From Podarcis vaucheri (taxonomy: Eukaryota), in NCBI GenBank assembly GCA_965113315.1, contig OZ220363.1: DNA of 64,000 nucleotides. One strand, 5' to 3'. Position numbers and translations under genes: made by a program. The stretch's first letter is position 1. Each line of letters begins with the position of its first letter. The notes beneath the pieces were generated by a model. It did no database searches, was not told where the DNA came from, and saw only the letters and a program-made list of their open reading frames with translations. Positions 15,336 to 47,218 of the stretch are shown in pieces.

Positions 15336-15681
15336 GGCCACATTCACCCCATCTATTTAAAGCATTACAGCAGCACTTTAAGCAGTCATGGCTTCCCCTA
15401 AAGAATTCGAGGAGCTATAGTTTGTTAAGGGCCCTGAGACCCCTATTCCCATTTTAGAGCTACAGTTCCCAGCATGGCTTTTAACAACCAAATCCCTCTT
15501 CACAGGAACTCTGGGAATCATAGCTCTGTGAGGGGGAGTAGGGGTCTCCTAAAAACTCTCAGCATCTTTAAACAAACTATAGCTCCCAGAATTCTCTGGA
15601 GAAAGCCATGGCTGTTTAAAGTGGTGTCATAGTGCTTTAGCAACAACAACAACAATTTAAATAGATGGTGTGAATGTAGCC
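15336..15681. mobile_element. Harbinger-like MITE (actacagttccc family, long form)
   Basis: TIRs ggccacattcac..catctatttaaa / tttaaatagatggtgtgaatgtagcc. 3-bp TSD tat. Confidence 0.75.
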
Positions 15682-19499: not shown

Positions 19500-20082
19500 T
19501 GGGTTGTGGGTCTAAATCTGCTAGACTCTCCTGAACACGACTTCAGTGTCCTTTCGTGCTTAGCCAGCCCCAGCTTCCCCCGGAGGAGCATAGCAGTGTG
19601 TTTCATTTCTCCTTCCCTCCTCCTCCTCCTCCTCCTCCTCCTCCTCCTCCTCCTCCCTTTGCTTCTCTTGTGGGGATGGGGCTGCAGCTGAAACTCGGCA
19701 GCCTTTCAACCATTAAACTATATAAAAGCGCGGCAAAGTTATGCAGCTGCCCATCGAGGAGGGGCCTGGAGGGGAGGGGTCTGCAGCCATAAAGAGAGGG
19801 TTTCTCCAGAGGCACCGCCCCTCCCCCTTTCCTTTGGAGGTGAAGGAGCTGACCCAAGAAGAAGCAAGGAGAGGAATCCACGGTGACACCAGGCAAGGGA
19901 AGGCGAAGAGGCAGCAGCGGCTGAGAGGCACATGCCCAGACGTTGCTGTTGGCTGGAAAGCCTCGCACTTTCTCCTTGCCTCTGCTTAGTCCTCCTACCC
20001 CTTGGCGCGGAGGATGTGCTGAGCTGATGCTGTTATGCTGTCGGTGTCACTGAGTCTCCCAAAGGGCCGATCTGGTGACAGG
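19500..20082 (+). promoter_or_regulatory. TNS1: Putative TNS1 promoter and 5' UTR: TATA box TATATAAAAG at 19719-19728, (CCT)n tract, GC/GA-rich, CpG-enriched region extending to about 21000
   Basis: Canonical TATA about 360 bp upstream of the ATG, CAGCTG E-boxes flanking it, and visibly more CpG than the flanks. The TSS is inferred, not observed. Confidence 0.6.
19617..19657. repeat. (CCT)n microsatellite about 60 bp upstream of the TATA box
   Basis: Direct reading. Confidence 0.95.
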
Positions 20083-20115
20083 ATGACCTGGGTTTGCCTG
20101 TCTTGCATGCTTTGG
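20083..20115 (+). CDS. TNS1: Tensin-1 long (C1-containing) isoform, first coding exon (MTWVCLSCMLW)
   Basis: aggATG at 20083 (A at -3), 11 codons, then donor TGG|GTACGT at 20116 (phase 0). Matches the mammalian TNS1 N-terminus as I recall it (MTWICLSCMLW|PEDLEA...) and splices in frame to the exon at 47104. Confidence 0.9.
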
Positions 20116-21117
20116 GTACGTAGATGTCTTTCGACGACATCCCGCAGCATCATTTTCCTCCCTCGCCTTACTCCCAAGGTGCTTGCTTTTGGTTGTGTTG
20201 CAAAGCGAAGCCGGGCTTCTGGTCGAGGGGTTGCAGTTACTGGGCTGGAGTGTTTCCTTCCACTTTTGACCGCATTTCCAAACAGGGCAACTGTAGAGGA
20301 GGAAGGAGGGGATGTCGTGGGAGAGCTTTGTGTTTGTTTCTTCGTGTGTGTGTGTGTGCGTGTGTGCATCCATGTGTTAATGCCAGTTGATGGATGGATT
20401 TCAAAGACTGCCTCTCAGGGATTGGAAAGGGAGACGAGGATCGGGAAAAGGAGAGGAAAACCCTCCTAAAGGATTCCATCTGGATGTGACTTTGCAAGGA
20501 AAGCCTTTGATGCTTGCTGTGAAGCAGATGTCCAGCTATCCGGCTCGCTGCGCCACTGGCGAACACTGCAGGGAAGCCGGGGATGTCGGGCTTAGAAGCA
20601 TTTTCTTCCTTTCTCCCCTGTTTAAAATGCCATTAGTTTTCACGTGAGGGGGAAATTAACTTTTCACTGTTTTCCCGGCGCTTGTGAGAACCAGATCGCT
20701 CGCCCCCTTCTTTACCGGTTTTGCAGCGAAAGGGAGGGCAAAACGAACTGCGCTCACTGAGAGAGCCTCTATGGTCATTTGTTGGCGATCTATTAATGCA
20801 GATAGTGGATGGGTATTTGGAACTGTGGAAACCTGAGCATGACATATTGGAGACCACCCACTAGGCTAGAAAGGTGTTTTGCAGTTGCATCTTGGGACGC
20901 ATGACGGTGGCACCAATATCTAGAAGTGGATCTGGCTGTTCTAAGCCCCTTCCAGGCATCATGACCGATCATACTGGAGACGTGCATGTGACCTGCTGTA
21001 CACGAGTGAGTGTCGAAGCTAGGATAATCTCTGGCCACCTATTTCTTTTCCATGTCCTGTAGGTCAGGTAACCTGCTGCACGTGGCTTGTGTGAGAATCA
21101 GCAAGATTTCTGATTTA

Positions 21118-21347
21118 CAGTGGTACCTCGGGTTAAGAACTTAATTTGTTCTGTAGGTCCGTTCTTAACCTGAAACTGTTCTTAACCTGAGGTACCACTT
21201 TAGCTAATGGGCCTCCCGCTGCCGCCGCACGATTTCTGTTCTCATCCTGAAGCAAAGTTCTTAACCTGAAGCACTATTTCTGGGTTAGCGGAGTGTGTAA
21301 CCTGAAGCGTATTTAACCTGAAGTGTCTGTAACCCGAGGTACCATTG
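21118..21347. mobile_element. Tc1/mariner MITE, family M, copy 2
   Basis: TA|cagtggtacctcgggtta ... taacccgaggtaccattg. Confidence 0.85.
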
Positions 21348-22730
21348 TCATGGGAGAGAAGCAGCCAGTGGGAAAATATCACAGGTTAGGTGCTTCCACA
21401 GGCAGGAAAACAGAGATGCCAAAAATAATTCTGTTTTTAAAGAGCATTATTTGTGCTTCCTTCCAATACTTCATCTAGTAATCCTGCTGGCCAGATCCTG
21501 ATACAGTTGGGCCCAGTGACTTGGAAGGCCACCCTGAGACCCATTTGTAACAAGGCAGGATTTGCTCCGTAGCTGCTCAGCCTGGAAGGGGGGCGGGAAT
21601 GGGCTTTGGGACATAACTAATCGGACAAACATTTGCATGAAAAGAGAACTCCGCTTCTCCAGAGCGGAGCCTGTCTGCCTGGTCCCTACAGTTACAACCC
21701 GCTGTTTGTGACATCGCTTTGTTGCCATAGCGATGCTTTGGGTGGTCCCAAAGGCGTGGGGGGGGGAGGTGGGTAGTTGGAGGACAGAAAGAAGCCAAGA
21801 AGAAGTGGGAGTGGGGGGACTCTGCAACTGCCAAAATTGGCCTCGGTTCTGAAGTGGCCTTTCAGGGGGAGAGAGTGGCGATGGATCATCAGGTTCTCAA
21901 ATCTGGGTGGAAGAGCCAGTGTTGTTGGGGTCTGTTTCCAACACTACCTCATATTAGTTACTCCACAGTAATAAAGATGTGAGCTATTCTTGCTCTTGCT
22001 ATTCTTGCAAAGTGAGGTGGTAAACCATGGAGAAACAGTGGCAGATTTTTTGTTAAGTTTTAGATGTCTCCCTAAAGAAACAGAAGCAAGCAGAGGGATA
22101 GACTCACGAGTGCCGATTCACAAAAGCATTTCTTACAAGCTATGCTTATCCACACATCCCATTGTGCCGCTGCTTTCTCCCTTGAGGAAAACTGCTCCTT
22201 AGTGTTAAATCAGAGCAAACAGCAATTCAGGTTTTCTCTGGACTGCCATTTGCGCCGATCTAGCACTAAAGAGTGAGTTTTCCTTGGGAAACGAGTTGGG
22301 CAAGGGGAAAACTGATTGGAGCCATGCTTTCTAGGCATGGGATGCATGCAAATGTAGATGAGCCCTCTCTTTGCTGTATTGACCGGCGTTGTGCGTAGTC
22401 AGCAATGTATTTTTTTAATTTCAGAACCCTCCGGTTCCTGAAAACCGTTTGAAATATGGGCACTGAGTCGAGATCTCTGTGCATGAATTGGCCCATGATC
22501 TGTCTTGCGCAGGAGCCTTTCCCCACTGTCCCATCTATTCCTGGTTATGGTCAAAATGGAGAGTAATCTGAATATATGAACAAGAGACCTAAACAGTTTC
22601 AGCCTTCATGAGACTTACAGGCCCAGAGTCCCCTTGGACTCATGGGGAAAGTTCCTTACTCCTTTGATGGTTTGCTTAGTCTCCTTGCATGTGTACAGAG
22701 GAAGCCGAACCCTGTATTCAAAGAATAAGT

Positions 22731-23515
22731 AAAAAGGCAAAGGTAAAGGACCCCTGGATGGTTAAGACCAGTCAAAGGCGACTATGGGGTTGTGGTGCTC
22801 ATCTCGTTTCAGCCCAAGGGAGCCAGCGTTTGTCTGCAGACAGCTTTCCATGTCATTTCATGGAGGACCTTAAGGTCCATAAATAGCAACACTCTAGAGG
22901 TCCCGGGCCCTAAGGAAGTTAGATTAGCCTCAACCAGAGCCAGGGCCTTTTCAGCACTGGCTCCGGCTATGTCTCATGAGACCAGGGCCTTGCGGGATCT
23001 GATTTCTTTCCGCAGGGCCTGTAGGACAGAGTTGTTCCTCCTGGCCTTTGGCTTAGAATCAGTTTGATTCCCTCCCCCCCTTTCTTTTTTTCCTTTCTCT
23101 TCCTGTGATGAGGCTGCATTTTAATGTTTTAATTGTTTTAATGTTGTATTTTAATCTTGTTTTTTAATTTGTATTTCAATCAACTTGTTTTTATTATTGG
23201 CTGTTAGCTGCCCTGAACCTGGTCTTGGCTGGGGAGGGTGGGGTATAAATAAAATTGATGATGATGACGATGACGATGATGGTGATGATGATGTGGTCAG
23301 CAGGACTAAACCGCTTCTGGCACAACAGAACACCGTGGCGGAAACCAGAGCACACGGAAACACCGTTTACCTTCCCACCACAGTGGTACCTATTTATCTA
23401 CTTGCACTGGCATTCTTTTGAACTGCTAAGTTGACAGGAGATGGGACAGAGCAAGGGGAGCTCACCCCATCGCGGGGATTCGAACTGCCAACCTTCTGAT
23501 CAGCAGGCCCAGCCA
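22731..23515 (-). mobile_element. Sauria SINE split by an L2 insertion (halves 22731-22856 and 23293-23515)
   Basis: The SINE body ...tgtcat|gtggtcagcaggactaaac... is contiguous once 22857-23292 is removed. Confidence 0.82.
22857..23292 (+). mobile_element. L2 LINE 3' fragment with (GAT)n tail
   Basis: Encodes EVRLASTRARAFSALAP...FRRACRTELF (L2 ORF2 end). 3' end gggagggtgggtataaataaaatt(gat)n. Confidence 0.8.
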
Positions 23516-25771
23516 TAGGGTTCATGAGCTTGTTGGATTCCCCCCCCCCCCGCCCCAGTACCAGAGATGAAAAACAATGCAGGGAAACATTTAAATGGAA
23601 GCAGAGTGTGGCCTCCACAAAATAAGAAGCGTGTTTGTGTATGTTTTCAGACCGTGCTTCCCTCTGCTTCCTGATTGCTGGCTGCTTAATAAGCTAACGA
23701 AGCTCTCCAGTGATGTAAGATCACAACGTGTTCATGCAGAGTTTTATCTTTTCCTTTTTTATTTTTTTGCTGTGGGAGGATTTTATTGCAATGATTTAAA
23801 TGATGGGGGATGACACGTGTTGTGATTTATCATCCTGGACAAGAACAGGGGAGGAGTAGCTTTGCCAGGTCAGAGAGTTCATTGCGCCTAGCATCCTTTC
23901 TCTGATAATGGCCAGTTCCAGATGCTTTTGAGGAAATGTTTTAACAGCATGGGGTACTAACCGGGAACTCCAGTCTCTGTTGATCACTTCCAGCCTGTTG
24001 GAAGCTGATGTTTTTGGGAGAAGAACATACGAGTTCCCAGGAGCTTGCCTGCTTTTCCAAAAGCAACAATAGAGGGAGGTGAAAGACCAGAGCCAGCTTT
24101 TTGGGGTGGGGAGGGGTGGGGGGATACTATCCAGTGACTAGATATTAGTTCAAGTCTAGACACTAAGTATTTATAGCACCCCTTTCTGATTAAGAATCAT
24201 GAATGATAATCAGTGACATTTTAATAGGGTTACTTGGGAAATCTGGAAACTATTTGTAACTCCAAGGTGCCAGTCATATTTGTAGCAGCTGGAATCAGAA
24301 ATTGTGCCAGCTTTATGCAATGAAAGAAAATAAAAGGATGGAAATTCAATTATGTTTAAAATATCAGATTTTTGAATATAAAAAAGGATTTGTGCAATTT
24401 AAAAAGCTCAATTACATTAATGGTCTTTTGTTTAAAAATGTAGTTTGCAACAAATCTGAATTAAGAAAAGAAACCACTTAGACTTAAAATATTTGATCCT
24501 TTTTTATAGATAGCAAAACAGGGTGATCACATATTCTTCTCTAATTATGCCTCCATAATTCTCTGTGTCTGTTTTAGATTGTAATCCTTTTAGGAAAGGG
24601 ACCCATCATACCTGTTCTTTATACTGTGCCATCTACAAGGAAGGCTCTATGTCAATAAATCTGCAGCCCAAAATCAAACGCTGCATTAAAGGTGTTGTTT
24701 GCACAACACAGCAAGCCCAAATAAGTGGGAGATTTCTACAGCTATTGACATGCGCCCACAACTCTCCACCCTCCATTCAGGCAAGCAAGAGTTGATGGGA
24801 GACATTCTAGGCAGACAAATGAACCAGAGTAAGGTTTGGAGCAGGACAGGTGAGGGGTGTCACCTGGGAAAAGGGGGTGCGGCTTTGGGGAGAGTGTGAC
24901 CTGGTAAGAGGCATGGGGACCAGAGAGCAATAGTGACTAGTAATGGTCTGCCACTGTGCATCTGACTTCCAGGCAACAGAAGCACTACTGCTTACTAGGA
25001 GAGGTAAGGGCAAGCAAGGTGGTGGGGATGTTGGCACTGTGTGGGAGCAGTACCAGGGCCCCTGCCCTTCAACCCTTCTTCTAAGTGGCAGCTACTCTGC
25101 TGCTGGGAGGTCATTTGTGTGGCAGTGCCCCTCCTTGCTGGTTGCTACAGCCAGACATAGGAAGTCTTGATGGCCGCATTTACCCTTTGGACCTCAGGCT
25201 CCCCACCCATGTTAAACAGTTGGTATATAACCAAATGTATATAATTTTGCAGTTCAAAAGGCACGTTATGGCTTTGACCAAAGGTTCTGTCATATGCTCC
25301 TATATAAATGCCCTCTTTAAATGAAAACCGTTATATTCTACCAACCAGGTAGCAAGATGTGCAAAACCTTTTTCTTGGTGAATTAAACTGCAGATTAAAC
25401 ATTCCTGATTTTATTTAAATTGCCTTGGTTCGAACTTTATAAATTTAATAAAACAAACAATTTTGCATGTTCCATGCATAATTGCAAATTAACCATAGGT
25501 TACGGTAATTTTCCCTTCATGGAGATACAGTAATTTCCTGATAGGAAACTGAATATTACAATGTATGGAAAGGGTGTGTATATGTGTTCAAATGGTTTTA
25601 TTCTCTTGGAACATTGACTGGATGTCAGATATTCAATCCTCTGGGTACCCTTGGAGAAAAGGGCATTTGACTATCCATGTCTTTTCTTTGGGGAGGTTAT
25701 AGCTGTGTAAGAAAAGCTAGTACATGAACTGCCTTCAGATACAAGCTAGAGGACTGTGCGGTTAGGCAGCT

Positions 25772-26592
25772 TAGAATCATAGAATTGTAGAGTTGGAAGG
25801 GACCCTGAGGGTCATCTAGTCCAACCCCCTTTCAATGCGGGACTCTCAGCTAAAGCACCCAAGACAGAGGGCCATCCAACCTCTGCTTAGAAACCTCCAA
25901 GGAAGGAGAGTCCACAACCTCCTGAGGGAGCTTGTTACACTGTCAAACAGCTTTTTCTGTCAGAAAGTTTGGTTGGAATCTCCTTGCTTGTAACTTGAAT
26001 AAACTGAATATCCAGAGCGGGAGAAAACAAGCTTGCTCCATCTTCCATAGGACAACCCTTTAGATATCTGAAGACGGCTATCATATCTCCGCTCAGTCTC
26101 CTCTTTTCCAGGTTAAACATACCCAGCTCCCTCAGCCGTTCTTCATAAGGTTTGGTTTCCAGACTCTTGATCATCTTGGTTACCCTCCTCGGCACACATT
26201 CCAGCTTGCCAATAGCTTTCTTTAATTGTGGTCCCAGTATTCCTGGTGTGTTCTCTATAAGGTGGTATAGAGTGGTACTATTACTTCCCTTGATCTGGAC
26301 ACTATCCTTCTGTTGATGCAGCCTGGAATAGCATTAGCTTTTTTGGCTGCTGCATCACACTGTTGACTCATGTTAAGCTTGTGGTCCACAAAAACCTCTA
26401 GATCCTTTTCACACATACTGCTAGTAAGCTAGGTGTCCCCCATCCATCCTATATTTGTGCATCTGGTTCTTCCTGCCTAAGTGCAGAACCTTAGATTCAT
26501 CCCTATTGAAATTCATTCTGTTAGTTTGGGCCCAGTTCTCCAATCTGTTAAATTCACCTTGAATCCCAATTCTGTCTTCTACGGCATTAGCT
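25772..26592 (-). mobile_element. CR1 LINE 3' fragment (RT thumb / ORF2 C-terminus and 3' UTR)
   Basis: ORFs RRVTKMIKSLETKPYEERLRELGMFNLEKRRLSGDMIAVFRYLKG and RLENWAQTNRMNFNRDESKVLHLGRKN. Antisense (ATTCTATG) tail agaatcatagaat. Confidence 0.92.
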
Positions 26593-29500
26593 GCGCTGAG
26601 CATTTCATAATATTGGAGCTCTTTTCCATAATTTTAATTTGAATTACCTCTAAAGTGAAGCAATTTAAATGGCTACTACTTCACATAAACAGAAAATATC
26701 TGCAAGTCCTAAGTTAGCAACTCTCTCAATATCCTTGGGTTGCCTGCTTCCCTGCGCCACCAATTATAATTTCCCATTACGATCAGATGTGTTCATCATT
26801 TCCTCTGGGAGACAAAAATTTGCTTGGGTTGATGTGTGTGCAGGTGAGTGATTTGAGCAATATCACCTCATTGTATGTGTTCAGTCTTGTCAAAGCTCTT
26901 TTGCTGTCCTTCAACCCTGAAACATAGTTATTCAGTTAAAAAATTGGCTGTGGCTACAGCCCTGGCTTTATTTGTCTGCTTTCAAAAAAAATGCTAGATG
27001 CTTACAGTTCTTCATATGGATTCCTTGTGTGCTAGGCAGGCAGCTAAGGTTGCCTGGCAACCATGGCCTCCTCCCAAACTTGCATGGGAAATGGTAAAGA
27101 AAGAACTGGATTAGAGTTCTTCTCCTTGAGTGCTGTGGTAAGTGCAGTGCAACTTGGGAAAAGAACACAAGAGCAGCCATGTTTGGTTCGGGCAGTAGGC
27201 CATTCAATCCTGTGTCTTTTGACAGTGGTTAGATTTGAGTTTTTCAAGACATTTTAATGAGCAGGGTACTTCATTTCCAAGCTGCAATCAGTGGTGTGAT
27301 TTTGGTGGGAAATGGGGAAATATTAAAACAATACTAATCAAATTTTGGGAGGATTAGAAATCAAAAGATTTCTGGAGTGAAATGTTGATGCTCAGGACTT
27401 CACTAGACTTTTTTGCACTAAGGCAACAAACAAGGGAGCACTTCTCTGATCTGTCCAGTATTGGCCGCAGTTAGAGGCAGGTGCTGAACTGGGTGGATCA
27501 TTATTACTGCTCTGGTTCATGCTGGCTGGGCCTCATTCTGCTATCCCTCAAAATATTAAACAGCTTGACAAAAGTCAAATGGGCCTGGGGATGCAATCCT
27601 TGCCCCACTTCAACACACTGGAGCTTACTGCTAAGTAAACATGGGGAAGATTGTGTTACTGTTGGAATTTGTGTTCAAGGTTAAAATAATCATCTGTCCT
27701 GACTGCTGATGGTTTACTCTGAAGCACCAGTAAGGTCTTTCTTCCAATATAGTTCCTGGCTCTCAGAGAAGGCAGAACACATGGATTTCAAAGTCCATGC
27801 CCTAAGTCCATGCTCTTACTAACAGCACATTTGAGGACTCTTTGCTTCAGCAAGTAAACTCAGCTGCCCTTGAGTGCAAAGCTGATAGGTTTGGGGTATA
27901 AATTTTCTTAATAAATGAACAAACTAGTTCTTGTCCCCGTGGTTAGCCCCAGGCAAGATTGATTTCCTATTCATGTAGCTCAGGGAGGACACAGTCCTTG
28001 TGCTTTAGTAAACCTCTCTTGCCTTTCAGTGGCACCCGTGGCCTGTAAACTTAATGAGAATAATCACTCTTAATTAGACAGCAATTTAAAAGGCAGCAGT
28101 TGAGCTCTTGATTGGGGAGCCCTGCAGTAAAAACATGTTATGTGAGTGTGGCAGATGGAGGGGAGGGTGTGGCTCAAGGGGAGAACTGCATTGGGATAAA
28201 GGGAAGGGAGAGTTAAATGAGGGTTCAAGAAGGTTGTTTGTTTATTGCTACAGAATGAAAAGCAAACCGTTGAGCAACTTTATAACAAGACTATGGGGGA
28301 AATCAAAGGCATAAGAAAGCGAAACTGTTTCTTTCCCCAGTGTCAGCCACATAGGGCAGCATTAGAGAAGCAGTAGCAGATGGCATAATGGGGCTTACCT
28401 GATCTCTTGGTAAGTAAGTCATTGCTGCTTACTGGAAGGGGCAAGGAAGAGGGGGTGGAATGAGCCAGATGCACTATTAGGAGTGCCAGATTGGCTCAGC
28501 AGGTACGTTTGTACTGTGATGACCTCATTCCATCAGTCTCGCCTCCCCCCATAAGCAGCAGTGACTTGCCTGCCGGGAGGTCAGGTAAGTGCCTCCACCC
28601 CACCAATGTCATCTGCTACTGTGGAGAAGGCATCTTTCATTCTGACCACAACTGGTGACAAGGGTCATGTCTTCTATTTGCAGGTGGGGATGGTGAACTT
28701 ATGTGGTACCTTTGTCCTTAACAGCTGTATTGGGTGCGGGGAGCACAATTTAAGGTCCCAGCTCTTGGTCTTGTGGTAATGAAGGACTTATTTTCACCCA
28801 GTTTGGGTCTTGCTTTTGCAGATGCCTCTCTGCCTAAGATGATAGTGGGTTTCATTCAGAAAAACCACCTGCAGGTTGAGTTTATTTTATACAAGTGTGA
28901 TGCTGTGGGTACTTGGTTCAGGCTATGCTTTGTAGTACCACACATCCCAGTGGTAAAACCAGCAACAGTTGGCAAATAATGGGCTACTATATGTGCCTTA
29001 TGGGTTCTACCACCAAATTGCAATGTTACCTCTCTACGATGGGCCTTAGGGGGCAGTCTAGGCCTTTGGAGGATTGCCCTAACACTGCATTGTCTTTATG
29101 CTGCATAGACACTAGTATCCTTTTGTCCTCCATGCACTAACAACAGGACTGCCTTTACTTCAAAGGTTCACTTATCAGATCATTGGTTCATTTAGGCCCA
29201 TGTTGTCCACACCGATTGATGGTGGCTCTTCAGGGTTTCAAAGAAGGATCTCACCCAGTCCTACCTGGAGAGGCAAATGATTGAACCTTGGACCTTCTGC
29301 ATTCAAAGCATGTGCTCTACCACTGAGCTTGTGGCCCTTCCTCTCTTGATGTAGGACTTGGCTGGTCAGTTATATATCAGTTTGCTGGATGGATTGGAGT
29401 TCATCTTATTAGCCGTGGGTCAGGAAGCAGCTTTGTTGTGTCTCTGTCTGCACTGAGGTCTTGTCCACACTTCCACTGGTCCCATGCCTAGAAAGCACAG

Positions 29501-30641
29501 GTCCAAGCAGTTTTCCACTTGTCCCACGCTTTCCAGGCATGGGTCCAAGTGGTTTTGCCTTTGTCCTGCCTCTTCCCCCTGGAAAAACCACTCTTAAGTG
29601 CTAAATTGGAGCAAATGGCCATCTGCAGATGCCATTTGCTCTAATTCAGTGCTAAGTTGCTGGTTTTCCAAGGGGAAAGCAGTGGGGTAAATAAAAGTAT
29701 GGCTGAGCCCTTATCTAATCCTCTTCAAGAATTTTGCTGTCTTTCACTTACGATATTCTGGCGCTGCTTGTCAGCACTCAAGCCCAGGCCTGTACCCAAC
29801 CTGAGACTTGGAACAATTTTGGATGGGCCTGTTCAAGGCCGTAGCAGTTATATTCCCCCCCCTCCATTCCTACTTTTGTGATTGAATTTCCCCATGGAAA
29901 GCTCTTTGGCTTAGATACCTTTTCCCTAGGGGGCTGGAGGTCACGAGGCCAAGGGAATAATTGACAAGGTCAACAGGCTAAAGTGCTGGAGAAGATGCTT
30001 TGGATATTGAGTGTGTGGGGTGGGGTGGGGGATGTCAAAGAGCCCCATGGGCTCCTGTCACTTTCTCTGAGGGGTGACTTAGTGCCTTTCCAGGCATGTG
30101 GCATGAGGATATAGGGATGAGGATAAGTGTTAGATGAGAGGCAAGCTTCCAGTTACAATTGCTTGCCAGGCCATCTGAGGCAGGCGATGCCGTGAGCAAC
30201 ATTCCCATGGCTCCCACTGATTGTAAAAAATGTGGGTTTCTTCCATCTTTCAGATCAGTCTCTGCCATCCTGGGGCTGATGTGAGTTGTGAGCACCAGGT
30301 TGGCAGAGTTTGTTTTGAATGATGATGGTAGTGTGGCAGTTTCGCCCAGGTGCTTGGGTACCATACACCCATGTCCCTCAGACCGTCTGACGGAGGTTTC
30401 ATTGCTCTTCCTGTCCTGCACAAATATTCTTAGGGTATTTTCTGAACCCCTGCCTGCTAACCTTTTGGATGCCACCAATTTAGCTTTGTTGCCCTACTTT
30501 CCCCCCAGCTCAGCTAAAGTCTCAGTAACTTCAATGTAAAAACAAACCGGGATTAATACTGTCCTTAACAAGACTCAGATAACTGGGGGGTGGGGGGGAT
30601 GGAGTGAAGGTGAAAATGTATAAAGAGTTCATTTTTAAAAA

Positions 30642-30937
30642 TTGCAGTTCAATCAATCCCCCCATATAAATAAACTGCTATAAATCTTTAATATGCCAAA
30701 TGTATTTCAACAGAGTCTTCCTCAGGGCCATATTTTTGCAATTCTGCAAAAATAAATAAAAACAACAAAAAAATCTCAATTTTGTGTTTACTTTGTTTTA
30801 TTTATTTTCCCTTGGATTGTAATATGTTATTAATATGTCACTGTGGAAGACTTTGTAGAAACCTGTTTGGCAGATTAAGGATTTATAGCAGTGTGTTTAT
30901 GTATATATATATCGTATGAGAGAACCATTGACCTGTA
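30642..30937. mobile_element. Palindromic Penelope-like remnant with two degenerate minimal hammerhead ribozyme motifs (30690-30734 minus; 30832-30876 plus)
   Basis: Long imperfect inverted repeat. Each arm reads stemI-CUG(A/U)GGA-stemII-GAAA-N4-UU-stemI'. Confidence 0.62.
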
Positions 30938-31608
30938 GTCAAAATGTTGTATTTTCTTCATAAATGTTTACCTTAAACTCATTTCCCCCTCCCAGTTACC
31001 CAGCAACTTCAACATAATACTGTCTCAAGGATGGATGTGTTCTCTCTGTCACCCCAAGTTTCACCTGCTTGATATATTCAGCAAAATGATGCAATTCCTT
31101 GCAGATATTTTCTTCCTCCCCTCCCTCTTTCCACTTCTGATGTCTCGCATCTGCATTTCACCCTCTGTAACCTCACATTGCATTCTCAACCCTGCTCCCC
31201 GAACTCTGGAAGAAGAAAAGTGAGGGTCTGGCTAGATGTTACAAGATACAAGCAGCTATTGCTGCTCAGTGTCTATTCCCAGCAATATCCAATTTGCTAA
31301 TTTGTTTTAAGAGATACAAATTAGATATCTGCTGACATTGAGGGTACACCAAAAAAGGAGGAGGAGGAGGGCTGGTTTAAAACTGAGTTGGAAAGCTCTG
31401 GTATGGCAGCATCATTGTACACTATTAATGTTTAAAAGTATATGCAGAGGCATTGAGTGGACGTCACATGAAGTCTTCCATTTTTGGAAGGATTGATTTA
31501 CTTTTACATTTCCACACTTCCCTCTTCAGGCATGAGGGAAAGGAGAGGGGGAAAATAGTGTTGGTTATCTGGATGAGTTGTCATATGTTTTTCAGCATGC
31601 CAAAGCTA

Positions 31609-32770
31609 ATGGACCATCTAGAGGAGTTGGGAGCTGGGGGCACTGATGCAGTGGTTCTGCTCCTTCCTCCTGGTCCGTGTTCAAAAAGTGGTGTTGGAGG
31701 AAGAGTGTTTGGACCCCATGGCTCTCACTTGTGGAGTGCCTCAGGGCTCTGTCCTCTCCCCCATGCTTTTTAACATCTATATGAAGGTGCTGGGAGAGAT
31801 CATCAGGGGGTTTGGGCTGGATGTCCACCAGTATGCAGATGATACCCAGCACTATCTCTCCTTCAAATTAGAACCAGTGAGGGCAGTGAAAGTCCTGTGT
31901 GAGTGTCTGGATGTGGTTGACGGATGGATGGTGGCTAACAGATTGAGGTTGAATCCTGACAAGACAGAAGTACTGTTCTTGGGGGACAGGGGGCGGGTGG
32001 GTGTGGGGCACTCCCTGGTGCTAAATGGGGTAACCGTGCCCCTGAAAGACTGAGTGTGCAGCCTGGGAGTCATTTTGGACTCACAGCTCTCCATGGACGT
32101 CAATTCTGTATCCAGGGCAACTGTTTACCAGCTGCATCTGGTACACCGGCTGAGACCCTACCTGACCACAGACTGTCTCGTCAGGGTGCATGCCCTGGTT
32201 ATCTCCCGCTTGAACTACTGCAATGTGTTCTATGTGGAGCTACCTTTGAAGGTGTCTCAGAAATTACAACTAATCCAGAATGTGGCAGCTAGGCTGATGA
32301 CTGGGAGCGGCCGCCGGGACCATATAACACCAGTCCTGAAAGATCTTCATTGGTTCCCAGTACGTTTCTGAGCATCGATTCAAATTGTTGGTGCTGACCT
32401 TTAAAGCCCTAAATAACCTCAGCCAAGTATACCTGAAGGCACGTCTCCACCCCCATTGCTCAGCCCAGACACTGAGGTCCTCCTCTGAGGATCTTCTGCT
32501 GGTTTCCTCACTGTGAGAAGTGAAGTTACAGAGAACCTTCTCGGTAGTGGCACCCTCCTTGTGGAACGCCCTCCCTTCAGATGTCAAGGAAATAAACAAC
32601 TATCTGACTTCTAGAATCTAGAAGACATCTGAAGGCAGCCCTGTTTAGAGAAGTGTTTAAGGACTGATGCTTTTTATTATGGTTTTAGTTATGCTGTAAG
32701 CTGCCCAGAGTGGGTGGGGAAACCCAGCCAGATGGGCGGGGTATAAACAAAAAAACCATCATTATCATTA
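31609..32770 (+). mobile_element. L2 LINE 3' portion including the RT domain (degenerate)
   Basis: GVPQGSVLSPMLFNIYM...YADDTQ...RLNPDKTEVL, then HALVISRLNYCN...QNVAARL...HITPVLKDLHW. Stop at 32051 and frameshifts. 3' end gatgggcggggtataaa. Confidence 0.93.
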
Positions 32771-33177
32771 TGTGATGTGTCCTACATTGTTTCTTACAAT
32801 GACAGCATGCGACTGGCAATGGGGTGCATGGCTAGATTTCATGGTGGCACAGGGACCATCGTTTAGAGGTAAAGCAGCAGTTTTTATACTTCCACATTTA
32901 TTTATTCATACTATTTATTTTGTGATTTACAGCATTTTATTGCCACCCCCGCACTTTGCTGAGAAGGTTCCCAGAGTGGCTTATGAAGATAGTAACACAG
33001 TCACAGGCTTACAATCTAAAAGCTATGACAGGCAAGGAGTACAGGGTTGGGGAAAGGAGGACAAAGGCAAGCTCAGATACCAGTTCTCAAAGTTTCAGTT
33101 CTTACAACAACTGGCTGAGATGGAAACAGTTTTTAGCTAGATGTTAAAATGCCACCGATAGCTGCTCCCCTACCAAG

Positions 33178-33179
33178 TT

Positions 33180-33230
<51 letters not shown>
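33178..33230. repeat. (TTTC)n microsatellite
   Basis: Direct reading. Confidence 0.95.
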
Positions 33231-33231
<1 letters not shown>

Positions 33232-33890
33232 ATAATAATAATTTTTAAAGCATAGTAGCACATAGGGATGCATTTTCACGATCAGCTGCTGCAAATGTAT
33301 TCAAATTGAACCATTTTGGGGGATCAAATTGACTGTGCATATTTGGTCTGAACCTCTGGTTTGGACTGCAGTCATGTTATCAAACTTACACAGCAAAGCA
33401 GCAAAGTCCTCTTCTGTGTTCTTATTGATTGGCTAGACTATATAAATAAGTTGGGATGGGATGGGAAGTTTTGAAGAAAAATCTTCTAGTGCTAGCTTGT
33501 ATGCAAATATTTAAATTTGATTTCTCCTTCCTTTTAACGTTTCTGTGGATAGAAAGAGAGAAGACAGGCAATTCAGAATATGTTCTCCCCTAGGATCTTT
33601 TCCTGATTGAATCATACAGGTCACTGGAGAAGGCCTCTTGCCCCTCCTGCCTTCAGCTGCTTCTCTAGTTGATGGCATTCAGTTCACTATGTTTGCTCTT
33701 TCCCTCTTGGCAGTTTTGGGGAAAAGGTCCTTGCCTGTACTGCACGCAACCTCTGCGATGTACCGTGTTGGTGGCCTTGCAAGAGGGTTCCCCCTCTGAT
33801 TCCTTGATTGCTGTCTGCAGTTGGGTGAAGAGCCTTGTGACAAAACAGTGAAATGCCAGGGCTGCTAACAGCACCTTTCTCCCACCTATG

Positions 33891-34230
33891 GGAAGAGCCA
33901 AATCCCAGTGGTTAGAGAATCCGCTTTGCACCCAAAAGGTCCTGGGTTAAATCCCCAGCATCTCACAGTAGGGCTGGGAATGTTCCTTGTCTGAAACCCT
34001 GGAGAGCCACTGGCAGTCAGTCTAGACCAGGCATTACCTAAACTCGGCCCTCCAGCTGTTTCGGGACTACAATTCCCATCATCCCTGACCACTGGTCCTG
34101 GTAGCTAGGGATGATGGGAGTTGTAGTCCCAAACAGCTGGAGGGCCGAATTTGGGGATGCTTGGTCTAGACAAAGCTGAACTGGAAGCACCAGTGGTCTC
34201 AGCTAATATAAGGCAACATCATATGTTCTT
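33891..34230 (+). mobile_element. tRNA-derived SINE with CR1-type tail (tatgttctt), interrupted by a hAT MITE
   Basis: cagtggttagag...gtcctgggttaaatcccc head, ggagagccactggcagtcagtctagac body. Confidence 0.65.
34028..34163. mobile_element. hAT-Charlie-type palindromic MITE
   Basis: Near-perfect hairpin (cggccctccagctgttt.gggactacaattcccatcatccct / agggatgatgggagttgtagtcccaaacagctggagggccg). Perfect TSD gtctagac, the NTCTAGAN target typical of Charlie. Confidence 0.88.
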
Positions 34231-37200
34231 CTTCCTGTATCCTATTAAACTTTCCTGATTGAGTTCATTTGTACCCCATTCCCCCCCCCATTCTGAGGTT
34301 ACAAATGTGGGGAGTGGTGGTGGAGGGGATCTTGCATGTAAGCGCTCAATCTGGTTTCTCTCGACTCACCCGCCCCCCTCCAACTTAGCCTGAAAGGAGC
34401 AGTCTCTATCTTTATTTGCTCTGATGTAATGTGATGTCTGGGGCCAACTCTGGAGGAATAGAGGAAACGGTCTGGAAACAAAACAGGCTAATCCCTCCTC
34501 CCTCCACCCACCCCCATTGCCTATAATTGCCGTGAGGTGGGGTGAGGGTGGAGTGCGGGAATGCAGACTTGCTTTGGGGTCTCAGGGATTGTTTTGCCTT
34601 GACTTGGAAGCAAAGGGGTCTGGGGAGGACAAGGGCACACATACACTGGGGTCCCCTCCTCTTTTTGCCCGAGATTCTGATTAGAAAGCAACTCACATTT
34701 GACTGTCCTCCCAAGATTTGTGCAGCTGTGTACTGTGTGCGTCCTTCTCTGCTCTGTATGGGAACAAAATGCCCTGGGGGAAATGGGCATATCTGGGAGA
34801 CGAGAGGGCCTTTTCTAAGGGCTATCTTCCCAATGTTGCTATCCAGGGTGGAATATCTTTTCAGAGGTATTCAAGACAGTGTTGGTTTTGCACAGGGAAT
34901 GCAGAGGCATTTCTCCATTCCTGGCACAGGACACAGATGGCAGTCTTCCCAGTTAGTGCATCCATTCCCAGGAATCACATTTTGCACAAGGAATTGCATT
35001 CTCAGTAGCAAACCAGTTACTGCTTGCTCCCTGGGAGTTCCACCTATAAGGGAAATTGTGGCTGTCCAAATTGTGGATGTGCGGAGTGTGATGTCATAAT
35101 TGTGGCAGCAGCATAGGTACCTCTTCTGCCTTCCATACCATTTAAAACTGTTATAAATGAATGACCTTGTATTCCTTTCTTCTGTCCCTTCCCCCCTTTA
35201 TATTAATTCCACTCTGGCTCTTCAGCACTGAGGTGCATTTCCTTCCCCCAGTGAAATCCCCTTCCAAGTATTATCCAGCTATCCACACAACTTCCAGACT
35301 GGGATATAGTCTCACTAATATTGGATGATTTGCTGTTTTAATGCCCAAAATAATAAGCAATTAAAGGGGACAGGGGTGTTGTTTGGGAAGGGCCTTAATC
35401 TTACATTGCATTGTAGCATGTGTGTGTATGTGTGTGTGTGTTCACAATCAGGATTTCATTTGGGTTCGTATTTTTTTCCTGTGACTTCTCATTCTGTTAA
35501 CTCCCTCTGGCTTTGAACTCTCTGTGTAGCTATAAAACAGGGTTAAATCACCAAGCGGTGATTGAATCCGTAAATGTGGTTGCCAGGAACTTCGTCCGCA
35601 GCTGGACGCAGTGTGGATGTGTAGCCAATATATGCTCTCCCCCTCAACCCCCCAGCCCAGCTTTGGTTTCTCAAATATTTGTGTTGGAATCTTTCCTGCA
35701 GTTTAGGTTTCCAGTGAAGAGTCAGCCCTAAATCTCAGTTCTAGTCCTTTCCTTGTGTCTAAAGCCTTTGGCCTGTGTGCTCCAGCTAAACCTATTCTCA
35801 GTATCCCCTTTGAATGGCCCCTGGTTCCTAAAAGGAAGCTGCGGGATTCTGAGGGGAGAGCTTGGATACTGCAAACAGCATGGTGGGTCTCCACCCTTTT
35901 CTTGTCAGGGGAAAATAGCATGTCTCTGGGTAATCTCAGGATAACTGCTAGGTTCCCAGTCTTGTTGGGCCTCTAAGCTGTCTGATTGCAATCCTGTTGT
36001 TTATACTAAAGCAGTGCAAAGTCCATGGTTTTGGGCAGATCTTGGGAGTGGCTGACCTGGAATAAAATAGCAGAGCATCGGCAAGCTGGAGAGAGGCCCT
36101 GTGGGCACTTCTCTGCCCCACTGAGGGAAGAAGAAAAGGGGATTGGTCTTGTTCTTCTTGGGAAGGGTTCAGAGATGTGTTCTGGTAAGTGGTCCAACCC
36201 TTATCTGAATCTTTTTCTGTGTGTGTCTTTGCCAGGAGGATTCCACCAGACTAGGTATCCTATCTGCAGCACTAAACTCTCCAGTTATAGGATGAGTCTT
36301 TATCTAGGCTCACAGTACCCATGAAGATTTTCATTTAGCTAACAGTGCTTTATCCAGTAGTGGAGGAACTGGAACATGGTCCTTTAACCCATTTTGTTGG
36401 CAGAGAAACAGCAGCATAAAAGGCAAATACAATGATGGGGCTTAATGACGTCCACCTTTGCACATTTATTTGTCATGTAGCACATCTAGAGTGCAACTGG
36501 CTCCTTTTCCCACTCTAAGCTTCTCTTAAACTGAATAGCTCTCATCCTTTTCAAGGCTCATGCTATACCTCAGTAGTTTAACTAATTTTGTCTGAACATT
36601 ACCCTGGCCATCTTCCATTACAGTATATTATTATATAGAATGAATTCACTTAAGTCACAATCCTTCTTGGGAATTAGCGCACTCAGGTAAAGTGCTGGAT
36701 CAGGTCATTACTGCACAGCTCTATCTTTCTTGCATGATACTGAATTAGATTGCCTTTTGGTCCCTTTCAAAGTCAAGGTGGAAGAATCGCCCAGGTTTCT
36801 CAGGTAGACAGCATCCATTTTAGAATATCTACCCTCTCCCATCATCTGACTGAGAGCAGCTTCCATAGTCCTTATGGATGTAGGGACTGAGACTGTTTGG
36901 GAGTTGAGGGATCCCTTCGTCACACCCAGCATTTGTCATTATGTGGCCAAAAGGCAAAGTTCCAGATGTACCTCTTACTCCCATCCCACCCAGAAGGCTG
37001 TGTGCGTGTGAAATTTAGTGTTGGGATAGAGTACAGAGCATCTTTTTCCTCTGTCTTTTTCTTTCCCATGCCTTCTGTCTTAGCAGTGCTGTGTCTGTGT
37101 GAGTCTGTGTGGGGTGTGTGTCTGTGTGGGGTTTTCAGCCATTTCTGTTCTGAAGGAGAACACTGTCAGGCGAGTGGTCCGCTAAGGCCTTGTTTCCATT

Positions 37201-40200
37201 TGCTGAGGATTCTTTTCTTGACTTAGGGGGGCTCACGATGACGACGCCTGAAAACCTCTGCTTAACTCGCTTGACGACTCAATACAGGCCTTTCTCTCTT
37301 TATGTGTCTATATTTATTTATACATTTTTGCACGCACGCACAATTTCAATTCACATGTTTGTGACCGTATCTGTAGTTCTGAGACACATTAAGAAACAAC
37401 AGTAGATGAGGGTTTTCTTGAGGGGGGTTATTTTATTTTCTAAAAGCGGGGGTTGGGGCAGGGGGGGAATGCAGATGATGAAGTGTTCGTGACACCCTAA
37501 ATAATGTTTGCATCCCCAAGCAAAACATCCCCTTGTCTGAAGCAGCTGCGCTGTTTCCTCTCAAGAGCCATGCAGTGGCCTCATTGAGTGCCTGAGTGCC
37601 GCTCAACAAAGATGCTAATCTAATTAGGTCTTGAGTCACCATGGAAGAGGGGAGATTTAGTTTTACACTGACAACTTCATATTTGGGAAAAAGTCCAAGT
37701 TTAATCTCCCCTCCCCTATGTATCTCTGAATCCTTCCTTCGCCACCGGCTGCCCCCTTGCAACCCCATGAGGCTCATGTGACCTGGCTCATGAGTTGCTG
37801 CCTCCCCCCTTCCCCTGGCAGGGGGAGGGGAGGGAATTGGGGAAAGAGAGGGGGCTCTTTTCTGCCACAGCCCCTTTGGAGCCAACATGAACCCAGGAGG
37901 TTGAGGGTCAAGGTCTGGGAACTTCCTTGCCAGCCCAGCTTGTGCAAACAGCTGGGTATCGTTAAGGCATGAGGTGTGGAGCGATGAGGCGGGCAGGGGA
38001 GGGGGAGCAGACTGGCCTGATTGTCTTTAACTCAGCAACAGTGCCCTAATTTCTCCATGGGGACCATCAAATATAAAAGGCCCCAAAGCCATTTAGGGGG
38101 CTGGGGTGTGGGAAGCCTGTAGGCTGGACTCTCGTGGGACCTGTATCATAAAACATCCAGGTTTGTGGCATAAGAAAACAACACATAAACGGTGCCTCCT
38201 TCATCCTTTATGTATGGGGTCAGACTCCAGTCAGTTCGACTGTCTGCTGACTGATAATGCAGCAACATAATCTTATTCTAAATGTTTGGTGGAAAGGAAG
38301 GAAGGAAGGAAGGGAGCCCAGGTCTCCTCTTACCTTCCTTGTTTTCTTTTGTCATTCCCAGCAGTGCTTCCAGATCTAATCTTTTATCATTATCATTATC
38401 ATTATTTTTTTAAAAAGAAGAAGTTGTAAGAGCAGAAATTAAGTCTCCTCCCCACAACTTCTACATGGAGTTGCAATGACTTTGGATGAGGAACTGTCGT
38501 TGGGTATATTGAGAGGTTTTGGATTCTCGAAGTATAGGAATGCCGGAGAGTTCTGTTTGGTCCACATTTTTAAGCAAATTGGTCTAATCTTCACCATTTC
38601 AGGGCTAAGTTGAGGTATCTGCACTTGGTCTTCGGATTTTGCAGTGCAGTTCTCAGCTAAAAAACCCAAAAAGCACAAGACAATGCATATACAAATGTGT
38701 GCCTTGAAGAAAAATGCATACAAAAATGCATATTTTAAAAGGAAATGGGTGCAATTAAGATGAAGTTTTTTTGCCGTGTTTTTCAAAAGAGATGGAAAAC
38801 AGGAGTGAGCTATGATTGAAAGCATGCAAAACTGACACAGGCTGGTGATAGGCTGACCTGCCCATCTCTCAATGGGAGAGACGTTGCTTATGGCCACTTG
38901 TGGTTAGTTCTGAACAGAGGAAAGAAAGGCTGCACTATTTCTGTCTGCTGACTGGCTGCTCTCTGTCCAAATTTAGCAAATGGAATTGCTTCATTGTCCT
39001 GCTGCTGATGGCTAGACTAGGCAATCTGGAAGGGCTGCCTCTGGGAATCACTACTGCTATTCCTACCCTCCCACAGGCTCTGGAGAAGCAGCCCTTCTAA
39101 AATAAGGCATCCTTGAAAACAAGATGTCTATCACTTTTAGTTCTGGGCCAAGCTACGTATGACAGCAGCCATGAGATGGCTGCTGAAAGTCATGTTCTCC
39201 CCTATTTCCTCATAATGTGTGACTTCATATATGCCTTTGATGCAACACTGTTATGTTGAGCATGGTCTTCCACAGTAGCTGCTTCTAGTGGGATGTGAGA
39301 AAACATGACATGATGGTCCCTTCTTCTGAGAAGCTCAGTGCAGCTGACACTTTGCACATGGCCTGGAGTTAGATGCTTATTTTGGTTTGGTTCTGATTAA
39401 CGAGCCTGGGGTTATTGCAAGGAATCAGAGAAGGATACAGTAGTTCAAGCTAAGTCTTTTATCAGGGGAAGTCCTAGTGGTTCCAGCCAAATGCCCTCAC
39501 CCCAGTAGTTGCTGCATGGAAAAATTCCCCTTAATATCAGATGTGCACAGTGAGCTTTCCAGATAATGCAAGGGCATAATCTGAATTAAGTCCCCAGAAC
39601 CTTCCCCATAACTACTGCAAGTAGACACTCTCTTTCAGTTGTTACGTAACTCAAGGAAAGCAATATTAAGGCAGACTCCAGAAAACATCTTCTACAGGTA
39701 TCTGAATTAAGTCAAAAGTTACATTTCATATGAAATGTCTCCATCTTTCCTTATGAGGGGCAGCTCAGTCAGCTGGTTGTACTTTCTGATTGCCAAGAAA
39801 CACCACATGACCTCCCAGCCACTCTCTGGCAGAAAAAATTGCACTGTGATGCCTGCTTATGGCTCATTACCTGTGCCCTTTCTCATTCAATGTTCCTTCC
39901 ACCCAGTGCTTAATGAGATCACTCTATATATTAGAGCTTGTGCCCATTAGGAATCCCATTGGGTTTGGTGGAGAGGTAGGCAGGAGGACCAACAGTAGGT
40001 GGAGCCAGAGATAAGGACAAACAGAGATGACGAATTCTAGTTTAGTCTCCATCATCTGATGAGTTCTACAAGAGACTGAGGAGGAGGAAGCTGATTGTGC
40101 CACTTCCTGGACTGGTCATATGTAAGAAGGTAGGCTAGTGAGAGCTTGCTTGGACAGACTGAGATTAGTGGGGCAGTACTTGATTTGTCCTAATAGACCA

Positions 40201-41733: not shown

Positions 41734-42700
41734 GGCAACAGGTCTCTGGGATTTATTTTTTTTTTGGGGGGGGGTCCTGTCACAGCCCTGTCCAAAGATG
41801 CTGCAGATTGAATCTTGGCTCTTTCTGTTCAAAGCAGGATGCTCTGCCACTGAGCTATAGCCATTTGCAACACTTGGCTCCTAAAGGATCATGATACAGA
41901 TGCTGTGAAACTATATTTTGGTGTGCCTGTGAAAGTCCACATTAGGCAACACTACCAAGGGGGTTCTGCCTGGCTGAGACTGTGAGTCAGATCTTTCAGC
42001 ATCCGAGATGCATGTATTGAAGCCTTTTCTAACAAGACACAAAAAGTAAATTTTAATAACAATTCCTTTAGCATACACTTACCAAGATATACCCTTGGCT
42101 ACATTTGTTTTCCATTTGTGGTAGTTTGTCCACAGCATCGTTTGGAAACCTGTGGTTAGGAGGAAAGAAGGGACTTTGTGTTCTGTTGTGGAAGCAAGGG
42201 CTGGTCTCTTTGAGCCAACATGGTCTTTACACTCGGGCCCACCCAGCTCTACAAATAGTTTGCTTTTGTCTCTCAAGTATAAAAACAAAGTCTCATGCTT
42301 TGGCTGAATCAAAAGATGCTGAGAGGAGCCTCAGTCCACCAGTCATTGCAGGCAACTAGTCACACATAACAGGGGCCCCCTAGATGCAGATGGGCACTAC
42401 TAGTCACATTAAAAGTTGTGCCTAACCAGTTCAGTAGGGCAACTGGGATATGTATGCAGTAGTATTGCAGATGGGATTGTGCATCTAGATGTGTCTGCAG
42501 TGCACACGGAAGGCTGCACTGGAGTAAGGGATGATATCCAAATAGGAACAGCACTGATGGGATGTCTGTGTGCCCTTTTCCTCTTAATACACATAGTGGG
42601 ATTTCCCACCTTTACCCTGTGCCATTGTAACTAATGTTGAAATTTTGCACAGATGAATTTTTTATTTTTTTTTCAAAAATTCAGAACATTTCAAAATTTA

Positions 42701-47103: not shown

Positions 47104-47218
47104 CCTGAGGACCTTGAAGCATCCACATCCCACACCTTCAAAGTGAAGAGCTTCAAGAAAGTGAAACCATGCGGGATATGTCGTCAGGCTATTACCCGGG
47201 AGGGTAGCACCTGTCGAG
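47104..47218 (+). CDS. TNS1: Tensin-1 coding exon 2, N-terminal half of C1 (Cys/His zinc finger) domain: [38 protein letters not shown]
   Basis: Polypyrimidine tract plus CAG acceptor (ctctttcctttcctccctgcag|, 47103), 115-nt exon, donor G|GTGAGT at 47219 (phase 1). H-x12-C-x2-C-x10-C pattern. Very similar to recalled human TNS1 [38 protein letters not shown] and unlike TNS2. Confidence 0.93.

What the first reader, a model, noticed from the sequence alone, without database searches (positions are those of the whole stretch)
30642..30937. Intronic ~300-bp palindrome carrying two fossil minimal hammerhead ribozymes (Penelope-like)
Seen: the segment is an imperfect inverted repeat. The + arm (30832-30876) reads aatatgtca-CTGTGGA-agactttgta-GAAA-cctg-TT-tggcagatt. 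The - arm (30734-30690) reads aatatggcc-CTGAGGA-agactctgtt-GAAA-taca-TT-tggcatatt. In both arms the 9-nt flanks are largely complementary (consensus AATATGCCA/TGGCATATT, stem I), with GAC/GTY as stem II and a 4-nt linker in place of stem III. Known: minimal type-I hammerheads with a tiny palindromic stem III, which cleave as dimers, are typical of Penelope-like element pseudo-LTRs, and these often occur as inverted termini. Inference: this is a non-autonomous Penelope-derived hairpin. These copies are probably dead, since the sense copy has A6->U and neither linker is palindromic (ancestral GAAACGCGT or GAAACATGT?). An intact family member in sense orientation in an intron would cut the pre-mRNA, so selection may have inactivated this one.
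Basis: partly seen in the sequence, partly recalled or inferred. Interest (0 to 1): 0.72.

Follow-up and report, generated by a model that had tools for sequence, protein, structure and literature searches.

The report
Fossil Penelope fold-back in lizard tensin-1
This hairpin in an intron of a lizard tensin-1 gene holds two worn, back-to-back copies of a tiny self-cutting RNA motif, and it is most likely the leftover end of a long-dead Penelope-like jumping gene that is predicted to be unable to cut anything, so it is ordinary.

Summary
Observation confirmed. Arms 30666-30734 and 30832-30900 are 81% complementary (fold z -9.9). Each carries a decayed minimal type-I hammerhead; the two point outwards. 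The site lies in a 27-kb TNS1 intron, with the + arm sense. Pattern searches found 17 other loci of this hammerhead type in the genome, with no control hits. A model built without the window's arms ranks them first and second in the window. The family looks extinct: the CpG at positions 11.1-12 is TG or CA in 13 of 13 matches, against CG in 56 of 63 motif matches of a young Neptune-type element that also inserts head-to-head. No Penelope ORF was found beside the old copies, so Penelope origin is inferred from motif and layout. Not supported: a mobile hairpin family, and selection on the sense copy. Both arms are damaged, the hairpin is predicted to bury the sense motif, no same-strand dimer partner exists in the window, and four related species show no conservation. 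The layout is published (Cervera 2014; Arkhipova 2013), and this scan has noted similar fold-back stubs in other genomes. Ordinary.

The parts
30666..30900 (.). Firm extent of the head-to-head palindrome (fold-back insertion stub)
   Evidence: self-match 70% over 248 columns
30690..30734 (-). Decayed minimal type-I hammerhead, antisense to TNS1: CUGAGGA and GAAA intact, C11.1 read as U, linker UACA not palindromic, stem I 7 of 9 pairs
   Evidence: model R1 38.8 bits, E 6.7e-11
30832..30876 (+). Decayed minimal type-I hammerhead, sense to TNS1: A6 read as U (30844), C11.1 read as A (30857), linker CCUG not palindromic, stem I 8 of 9 pairs; nominal cut site after 30867
   Evidence: model R1 28.9 bits, E 1.9e-07
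30735..30831 (.). Inner T-rich arms (30749-30770 and 30787-30808) and the junction; likely the truncated pseudo-LTR sequence upstream of each hammerhead
   Evidence: role inferred
30877..30900 (+). Tail downstream of the + hammerhead (mirror 30666-30689); weakly similar to the tails of L020, L024, L015, L026
30901..30937 (+). TA tract (length varies among related species) and a possible further tail pairing with 30642-30665; uncertain
   Evidence: extension not significant alone
30610..30619 (+). Candidate left target-site duplication (9 of 10 match to 30938-30947); inconclusive
   Evidence: 3 of 4 related species differ at 30938
30938..30947 (+). Candidate right target-site duplication; inconclusive
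20035..20115 (+). TNS1 alternative first coding exon upstream of the element, followed by a GT donor
   Evidence: tblastn 24 of 27 identical to P0123 residues 1-27; donor context
47104..47218 (+). TNS1 C1-domain exon downstream of the element
   Evidence: 39 of 39 identical to P0123 residues 28-66

Best explanation
The palindrome is most likely the fixed, neutrally decaying stub of one insertion by an extinct Penelope-like retroelement, made of two very short 3'-end pieces joined head to head, each ending in that element's minimal hammerhead and a short tail. Shown: the head-to-head layout, the two motifs, their membership in a dispersed low-copy motif family in this genome, CpG decay across that family, the position in a TNS1 intron, presence in four related species without reduced variation. 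Inferred: the parent was an endonuclease-bearing PLE (clade not determined; Neptune is plausible) whose reverse transcription left an inverted 5'-truncated copy beside a direct one. Predicted: no cleavage today or at birth, because a minimal hammerhead needs a same-strand partner to form helix III, and in TNS1 pre-mRNA the antisense arm is transcribed first and pairs with the sense arm.
For: 17 other loci of this hammerhead type from three patterns, control 0 hits each. Positions left free still fit a hammerhead: A6 in 5 of 5; U16.1 in 6 of 7, 2 of 3 among newly found loci; the stem I pair next to the fixed ones is paired in 12 of 13, with 3 double changes; 5 of 15 linkers are perfect palindromes against about 0.07 per copy. 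Model R1, built from 13 loci outside the window, ranks the two arms first and second of 20 window hits, 38.8 and 28.9 bits, next 14.5. Positions 11.1-12: 0 CG, 6 TG, 7 CA of 13; the partial left arm of L024 keeps CG; young family CG in 56 of 63. The same layout occurs at L024, in 10 of 59 loci of a young RT plus GIY-YIG element in this genome, and with intact motifs in metagenome loci L114/L118 and L117/L120. Hairpin -88.6 against -52.9 kcal/mol with stem I forced; stem I pair probability 0.000000. Orthologs: 5 of 40 listed variable sites fall in the 90 nt of motifs, including U4 and A14 of the sense arm. The layout is described in PMC3846280, PMC8557442 and PMC4209133.
Against: No PLE ORF remnant within about 5 kb of 14 old loci, within 1.5 kb of 3 more, or in the window; the only hit was a young-family fragment in L039. 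The search patterns fixed most core bases, so core conservation is partly built in, and whole-structure covariation is weak (10 of 500 shuffles reach the score; other measures 38 to 259 of 500). No significant target-site duplication. The family copies share little flanking sequence with this element. Inactivity is predicted from folding and known core rules, not measured. Ortholog data cover only close relatives (about 1% divergence each), so power is low.
Confidence: 0.85

Rival explanations
1. It is a copy of a non-autonomous hairpin element that moved as a unit.
For: Long terminal inverted repeats and no ORF. The window holds other palindromes that look like MITEs. L024 and L026 are also inverted.
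Against: No second copy of the element or its tail (the DNA search is insensitive). The inverted cases have different centres and spacers. Most of the 17 loci are single motifs. No clear TSD or transposon end motif.
Confidence: 0.07
2. The sense hammerhead once cut TNS1 pre-mRNA and was inactivated by selection (A6>U).
For: The only core hit in this genome's two arms is in the sense arm. It scores lower than the antisense arm (28.9 vs 38.8 bits). 4 of 5 variable motif sites in relatives are in the sense arm.
Against: The sense motif is predicted to be buried by the upstream arm. Minimal motifs showed no monomer cleavage and only low dimer cleavage (PMC4209133). The antisense arm also lost stem I pairs and its palindromic linker. 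A6>U is shared by all 4 relatives, so later hits cannot reflect selection against cutting. A 4:1 split is within chance.
Confidence: 0.04
3. The hairpin has been exapted as a host RNA structure in TNS1 pre-mRNA (editing substrate, small-RNA precursor) or as a DNA regulatory site.
For: A very stable hairpin, fixed in 4 of 4 related species laid. Of 6 transition differences between arms, 5 give G-U on the TNS1 sense strand (one-sided p about 0.11, my arithmetic).
Against: Variation inside the palindrome is not reduced: 8 of 40 listed sites in 235 of 1590 nt, p 0.37, plus indels. 7 of 13 arm differences are plain mismatches. No Rfam family near its gathering score.
Confidence: 0.04

Closest known systems
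Minimal type-I hammerheads (min-HHR) of metazoan Penelope-like elements, Cervera and De la Pena 2014, PMC4209133 (parts 1-2 of 4 of the text read)
   Same: CUGANGA and GAAA boxes, an extra base before stem II, no real helix III, palindromic linker in the family. The paper reports dual motifs 100-700 bp apart on opposite strands, mostly solo truncated copies, and similar motifs in turtle and snakes.
   Different: These two copies are decayed (A6>U in one, C11.1 lost in both, linkers not palindromic), and no PLE ORF is linked to this family here.
Inverted pseudo-LTR insertions of EN+ PLEs, Arkhipova et al. 2013 PMC3846280 and Craig et al. 2021 PMC8557442 (passages read)
   Same: Head-to-head inverted 5'-truncated copy, hammerhead near the 3' end, short tail.
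   Different: Truncation is extreme (about 115 nt per arm, no coding sequence), and the TSD and one-sided tail cannot be shown with confidence.
Young Neptune-type PLE of this same genome (L046-L104; RT, cysteine-rich linker, GIY-YIG)
   Same: Minimal hammerhead about 180 nt after the stop codon, followed by a tail; head-to-head in 10 of 59 loci; an ORF-less fold-back at L017:1658-1826.
   Different: Different stem I, stem II, linker and tail; R1 does not score its motif; CpG intact; thousands of candidates against 17 loci found for the old family.
Non-LTR retrozymes (Li et al., bioRxiv 10.64898/2026.07.22.740005; part 1 of 5 and passages read)
   Same: Non-coding, PLE-derived, type-I hammerhead.
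   Different: Retrozymes are same-strand tandem repeats able to form dimers; this is an inverted pair with one motif per strand.

Membership tests
Minimal type-I hammerhead (min-HHR) | CUGANGA box | tested here: not met
   Met in the - arm; the + arm has U at position 6, shared by 4 of 4 relatives. The family has A6 in 5 of 5 loci where it was left free. The + arm is a fossil, not a member in working order.
Minimal type-I hammerhead (min-HHR) | GAAA box and U16.1-H17 | tested here: met
   Both arms. A14 differs in one relative.
Minimal type-I hammerhead (min-HHR) | G10.1-C11.1 pair closing helix II, with an extra base before it | tested here: not met
   Extra A present; 11.1 is A (+ arm) or U (- arm). 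C survives in the L024 left arm and in the CA-type copies.
Minimal type-I hammerhead (min-HHR) | Stem I closing the motif | tested here: met
   8 of 9 and 7 of 9 pairs; family pair counts, where three pairs were fixed by the search patterns.
Minimal type-I hammerhead (min-HHR) | Palindromic linker for dimer helix III | tested here: not met
   CCUG and UACA are not palindromic; 5 of 15 family linkers are.
Minimal type-I hammerhead (min-HHR) | Self-cleavage as a dimer | not testable with these tools
   Needs an in vitro assay; folding predicts burial of the sense motif.
Penelope-like element (EN+) | RT plus GIY-YIG ORF linked to the pseudo-LTR | tested here: not met
   None at this locus or near 17 family loci, using Neptune-like queries only. 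Filed as a derived fragment by inference, not as a full element.
Penelope-like element (EN+) | Head-to-head inverted 5'-truncated copy with hammerhead near the 3' end | tested here: met
   same layout in ORF-linked young loci.
Penelope-like element (EN+) | Tail at one end and short target-site duplication | tested here: inconclusive
   A 9 of 10 direct repeat at 30610 and 30938 would imply a 22-nt one-sided tail, but such a match is near chance in these flanks.
Neptune clade | Cysteine linker motif between RT and EN | not testable with these tools
   No ORF for the old family. The motif is present in the young family only.
MITE (non-autonomous DNA transposon) | Many copies with the same termini and length, plus a TSD | tested here: not met
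   Tail single-copy at 2 mismatches; family copies differ in layout; no clear TSD.
Non-LTR retrozyme | Same-strand tandem units, each with an intact hammerhead | tested here: not met
   One motif per strand; no further strong R1 hit in the window.

The most novel reading that the evidence does not exclude
The locus marks an uncatalogued, very old wave of Penelope-like activity in squamates, now recognisable almost only by its hammerhead, and this copy's hairpin was kept by the host as a functional RNA structure in TNS1 pre-mRNA.
Probability: 0.05. Interest if true: 0.5.

Novelty: new member of a known kind. Interest (0 to 1): 0.14.

Why it matters
Little on its own. It is one more fold-back Penelope-like stub, here from an old, extinct family rather than the genome's abundant young one. 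Two points are useful. The hammerhead core contains a CpG (C11.1-G12), so methylation-driven decay destroys G12 in about half of old copies, and descriptor searches that demand GAAA will undercount such fossils. Head-to-head stubs are predicted to silence their own sense ribozyme, so their presence in introns needs no selective explanation.

Tried and rejected
Rfam search of 29000-33000 gave no hammerhead family. This is uninformative, because Rfam also missed intact minimal motifs in L117, L063 and L013. DNA search of the genome with 30600-30960 returned only the locus itself (low sensitivity). Of 5 outside hits of the first pattern (control 1 hit), L006 and L009 lack the rest of the motif and were not scored by R1, so they were dropped. 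A pattern for an intact CGCG linker gave 1 locus: no young relative of this family. Searches for the parent ORF by GIY-YIG family and by an alligator protein returned only the young family, apart from one SLX1-like top hit. RNA: no RNA holder listed. RNA reads of a related species laid on 19001-39000 gave repeat-derived cover only, no exon cover and no listed splice joint, so they say nothing on expression or cleavage. Pfam on 90 of 884 window ORFs missed the host exons; TNS1 was found by a splice-site scan and homology. A TA-microsatellite target was considered, but the TA tract may lie inside the tail. Of 10 metagenome matches, 5 (L112, L113, L115, L119, L121) show no inverted partner and look like chance hits, L116 is a single motif, and none had a PLE ORF. 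I recalled the names Penelope1_Vert and UCON13 as possible relatives. The first is in no held paper, the second is only listed as Penelope, and no sequence comparison was possible. Lunse et al. (PMC5785218) is not held; it is known here only through a review's passages.

Full report
Observation. The two arms read as quoted. The inverted repeat has 69-nt arms at 30666-30734 and 30832-30900, 81% complementary, with inner arms at 30749-30770 and 30787-30808. The segment folds at -94.4 kcal/mol, z -9.91, with 0 of 200 shuffles as stable. The firm palindrome is 235 nt; the outer extension to 30642/30937 is reached by 1098 of 5000 random pairs. Each arm, read from the centre outwards, carries stem I, a CUG-N-N-GA box, an extra A, a short stem II, GAAA, four bases, U-U and the stem I partner. 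The pair is therefore head to head.

Host gene. A splice-site scan found a strong exon at 47104-47218, which matches tensin-1. Annotated squamate isoforms join it directly to a first exon that lies at 20035-20115 on + (24 of 27 identical to P0123; 17 of 120 hits show this junction). Two other first exons seen in relatives were not found in the window; I infer they lie upstream. The element is thus in a 27-kb TNS1 intron, with the + arm sense. This rests on homology; RNA reads gave no exon cover. The host is a lizard by these homologies.

Are the motifs real? Three pattern searches of the genome gave 5, 13 and 7 matches with 0 control hits each, 17 distinct loci outside the window (L020 and L021 are duplicates of each other). 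The patterns fixed most core bases, so I weighed the positions left free. A6 was A in 5 of 5. U16.1 was U in 6 of 7, or 2 of 3 among new loci. The stem I pair beside the fixed ones was paired in 12 of 13 with 3 double changes (in one of the 13 it was fixed). Of 15 tabulated loci (L021 dropped as a duplicate, L107 not parsed), 5 have a perfectly palindromic linker against about 0.07 expected per copy, and 22 of 30 linker halves are CG, TG or CA against 17% background. Whole-structure covariation is weak: 10 of 500 shuffles reach the score, and the other measures are unremarkable. A covariance model built from 13 loci outside the window ranks the two arms first and second in the window at 38.8 and 28.9 bits, next 14.5. 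Rfam found no hammerhead but also misses intact minimal motifs.

Age. In this family C11.1 and G12 form a CpG. A pattern that allowed either decay route found 0 CG, 6 TG and 7 CA in 13 matches. The partial left arm of L024 still has CG. The genome's young element has CG in 56 of 63 motif matches in 59 loci, three places fetched twice. The linkers fit decay of an ancestral CGCG, although several subfamilies with different palindromes are possible (inference). The element is present with both arms in 4 of 4 related species laid, and A6>U is shared by all. Of 40 listed variable sites in about 1590 nt (one more not shown), 5 lie in the 90 nt of motifs, including U4 and A14 of the sense arm, and 8 in the palindrome (p 0.07 and 0.37). 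No constraint is visible, with low power.

Origin. This genome holds an abundant young element with RT, a cysteine-rich linker and GIY-YIG. The linker motif is the Neptune mark named in PMC8557442 (passages). It carries a different minimal hammerhead about 180 nt after the stop, and 10 of 59 loci are head to head within 1.5 kb; an ORF-less fold-back of it lies at L017:1658-1826. In the old family, L024 is a second head-to-head palindrome, L026 has an inverted partial motif and L111 has inverted tails, each with its own centre. Metagenome loci L114/L118 and L117/L120 show 420- and 368-nt palindromes; L117/L120 has an intact motif on each arm, and L114/L118 an intact motif on the matched arm. 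Papers describe this layout: dual minimal motifs 100-700 bp apart on opposite strands (PMC4209133, parts 1-2 of 4 read), and head-to-head inverted pLTRs with tail and 8-10-bp TSD (PMC3846280, passages). Against this, no ORF remnant was found near 17 old loci or in the window, by tblastn with 120 proteins (14 loci and the window) or a profile of 71 (17 loci and the window). All queries were Neptune-like. Tail similarity to L020, L024, L015 and L026 is suggestive only, and the candidate TSD is inconclusive. PLE origin is therefore inferred, and the clade is not determined.

Mechanism. Most likely one retrotransposition event left two short 3'-end pieces joined head to head, after which the stub decayed. 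How the inversion forms is unsettled: self-priming is proposed in PMC3846280, and cutting and extension of both strands was shown in vitro for an anole element (PMC11167929, passages). Cleavage is predicted absent. Minimal motifs showed none as monomers and little as dimers. The window has no same-strand partner. In the TNS1 transcript the hairpin is 35.7 kcal/mol more stable than a fold with stem I forced, and stem I pairs have probability 0.000000. That A6 and the 10.1-11.1 pair matter for catalysis is recalled knowledge, apart from the conserved G10.1-C11.1 pair noted.

Rivals. A mobile hairpin or MITE is unlikely: the tail is single-copy at 2 mismatches, and inverted cases differ in centre. 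Selection on the sense copy is not needed and not shown: both arms are damaged and the sense arm was predicted to be masked from the start. Some counts lean that way (lower score, 4 of 5 variable motif sites in the sense arm) but are within chance. Exaptation of the hairpin has only a 5:1 G-U lean on the sense strand and no conservation signal.

Novelty. The motif, the layout and their occurrence in reptiles are published. Six searches of the held library showed no paper on this particular old lizard family, but Dfam and Repbase could not be checked and may list it; supplements of PMC4209133, which hold the reptile examples, were not opened. Earlier notes of this scan report similar stubs in other genomes and a young-family stub further along TNS1 (unchecked AI notes). 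Verdict: a real fossil, a new member of a known kind, interest 0.14.

Noticed in passing
window 34020-34171, 15358-15639, 29573-29677, 12327-12456: Four more imperfect palindromes that look like MITE-type repeats; no hammerhead by descriptor or model.
   Followed up: partly
window 31622-32050 (+): Reverse transcriptase fragment (RVT_1, E 2.2e-15), about 700 nt from the element; LINE-like, not matched by the Neptune profile.
   Followed up: partly
L046-L104: A young Neptune-type PLE with thousands of candidate copies (3865 and 5310 first-look candidates). Its best named full-length relatives are turtle proteins at 65-68% identity.
   Followed up: partly
P0064-P0070, P0082, P0084: Annotated lizard proteins in which a CARD domain is joined to sequence 80-83% identical to the young PLE's protein; may be exonisation or an annotation artefact.
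   Followed up: no
L020 and L021 (G000:C1:86037276 and 86046136): Two copies of the old motif 8.9 kb apart within a local duplication, 90% identical over 482 columns.
   Followed up: partly
L111 around 1370-1770: Old-family hammerhead enclosed by inverted repeats of its own downstream sequence; shares about 150 nt with L012 and less with L013.
   Followed up: partly
L114/L118 about 3940-4359; L117/L120 3944-4305: AT-rich metagenome contigs, probably animal host DNA, with well-preserved head-to-head hammerhead palindromes and several other palindromes nearby; no PLE ORF found.
   Followed up: partly
window 41839-41885 (+): Weak model hit (13.8 bits) with stem I and CUGA but no aligned core; possibly a far more decayed copy or chance.
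   Followed up: no
window 29274-29329 (-): Weak tRNA-like match (19.9 bits, below gathering score), probably a tRNA-derived SINE head.
   Followed up: no
window 19720-20115: TATA-like sequence and GC-rich region upstream of the TNS1 first exon; squamate TNS1 records show three alternative N-termini.
   Followed up: partly
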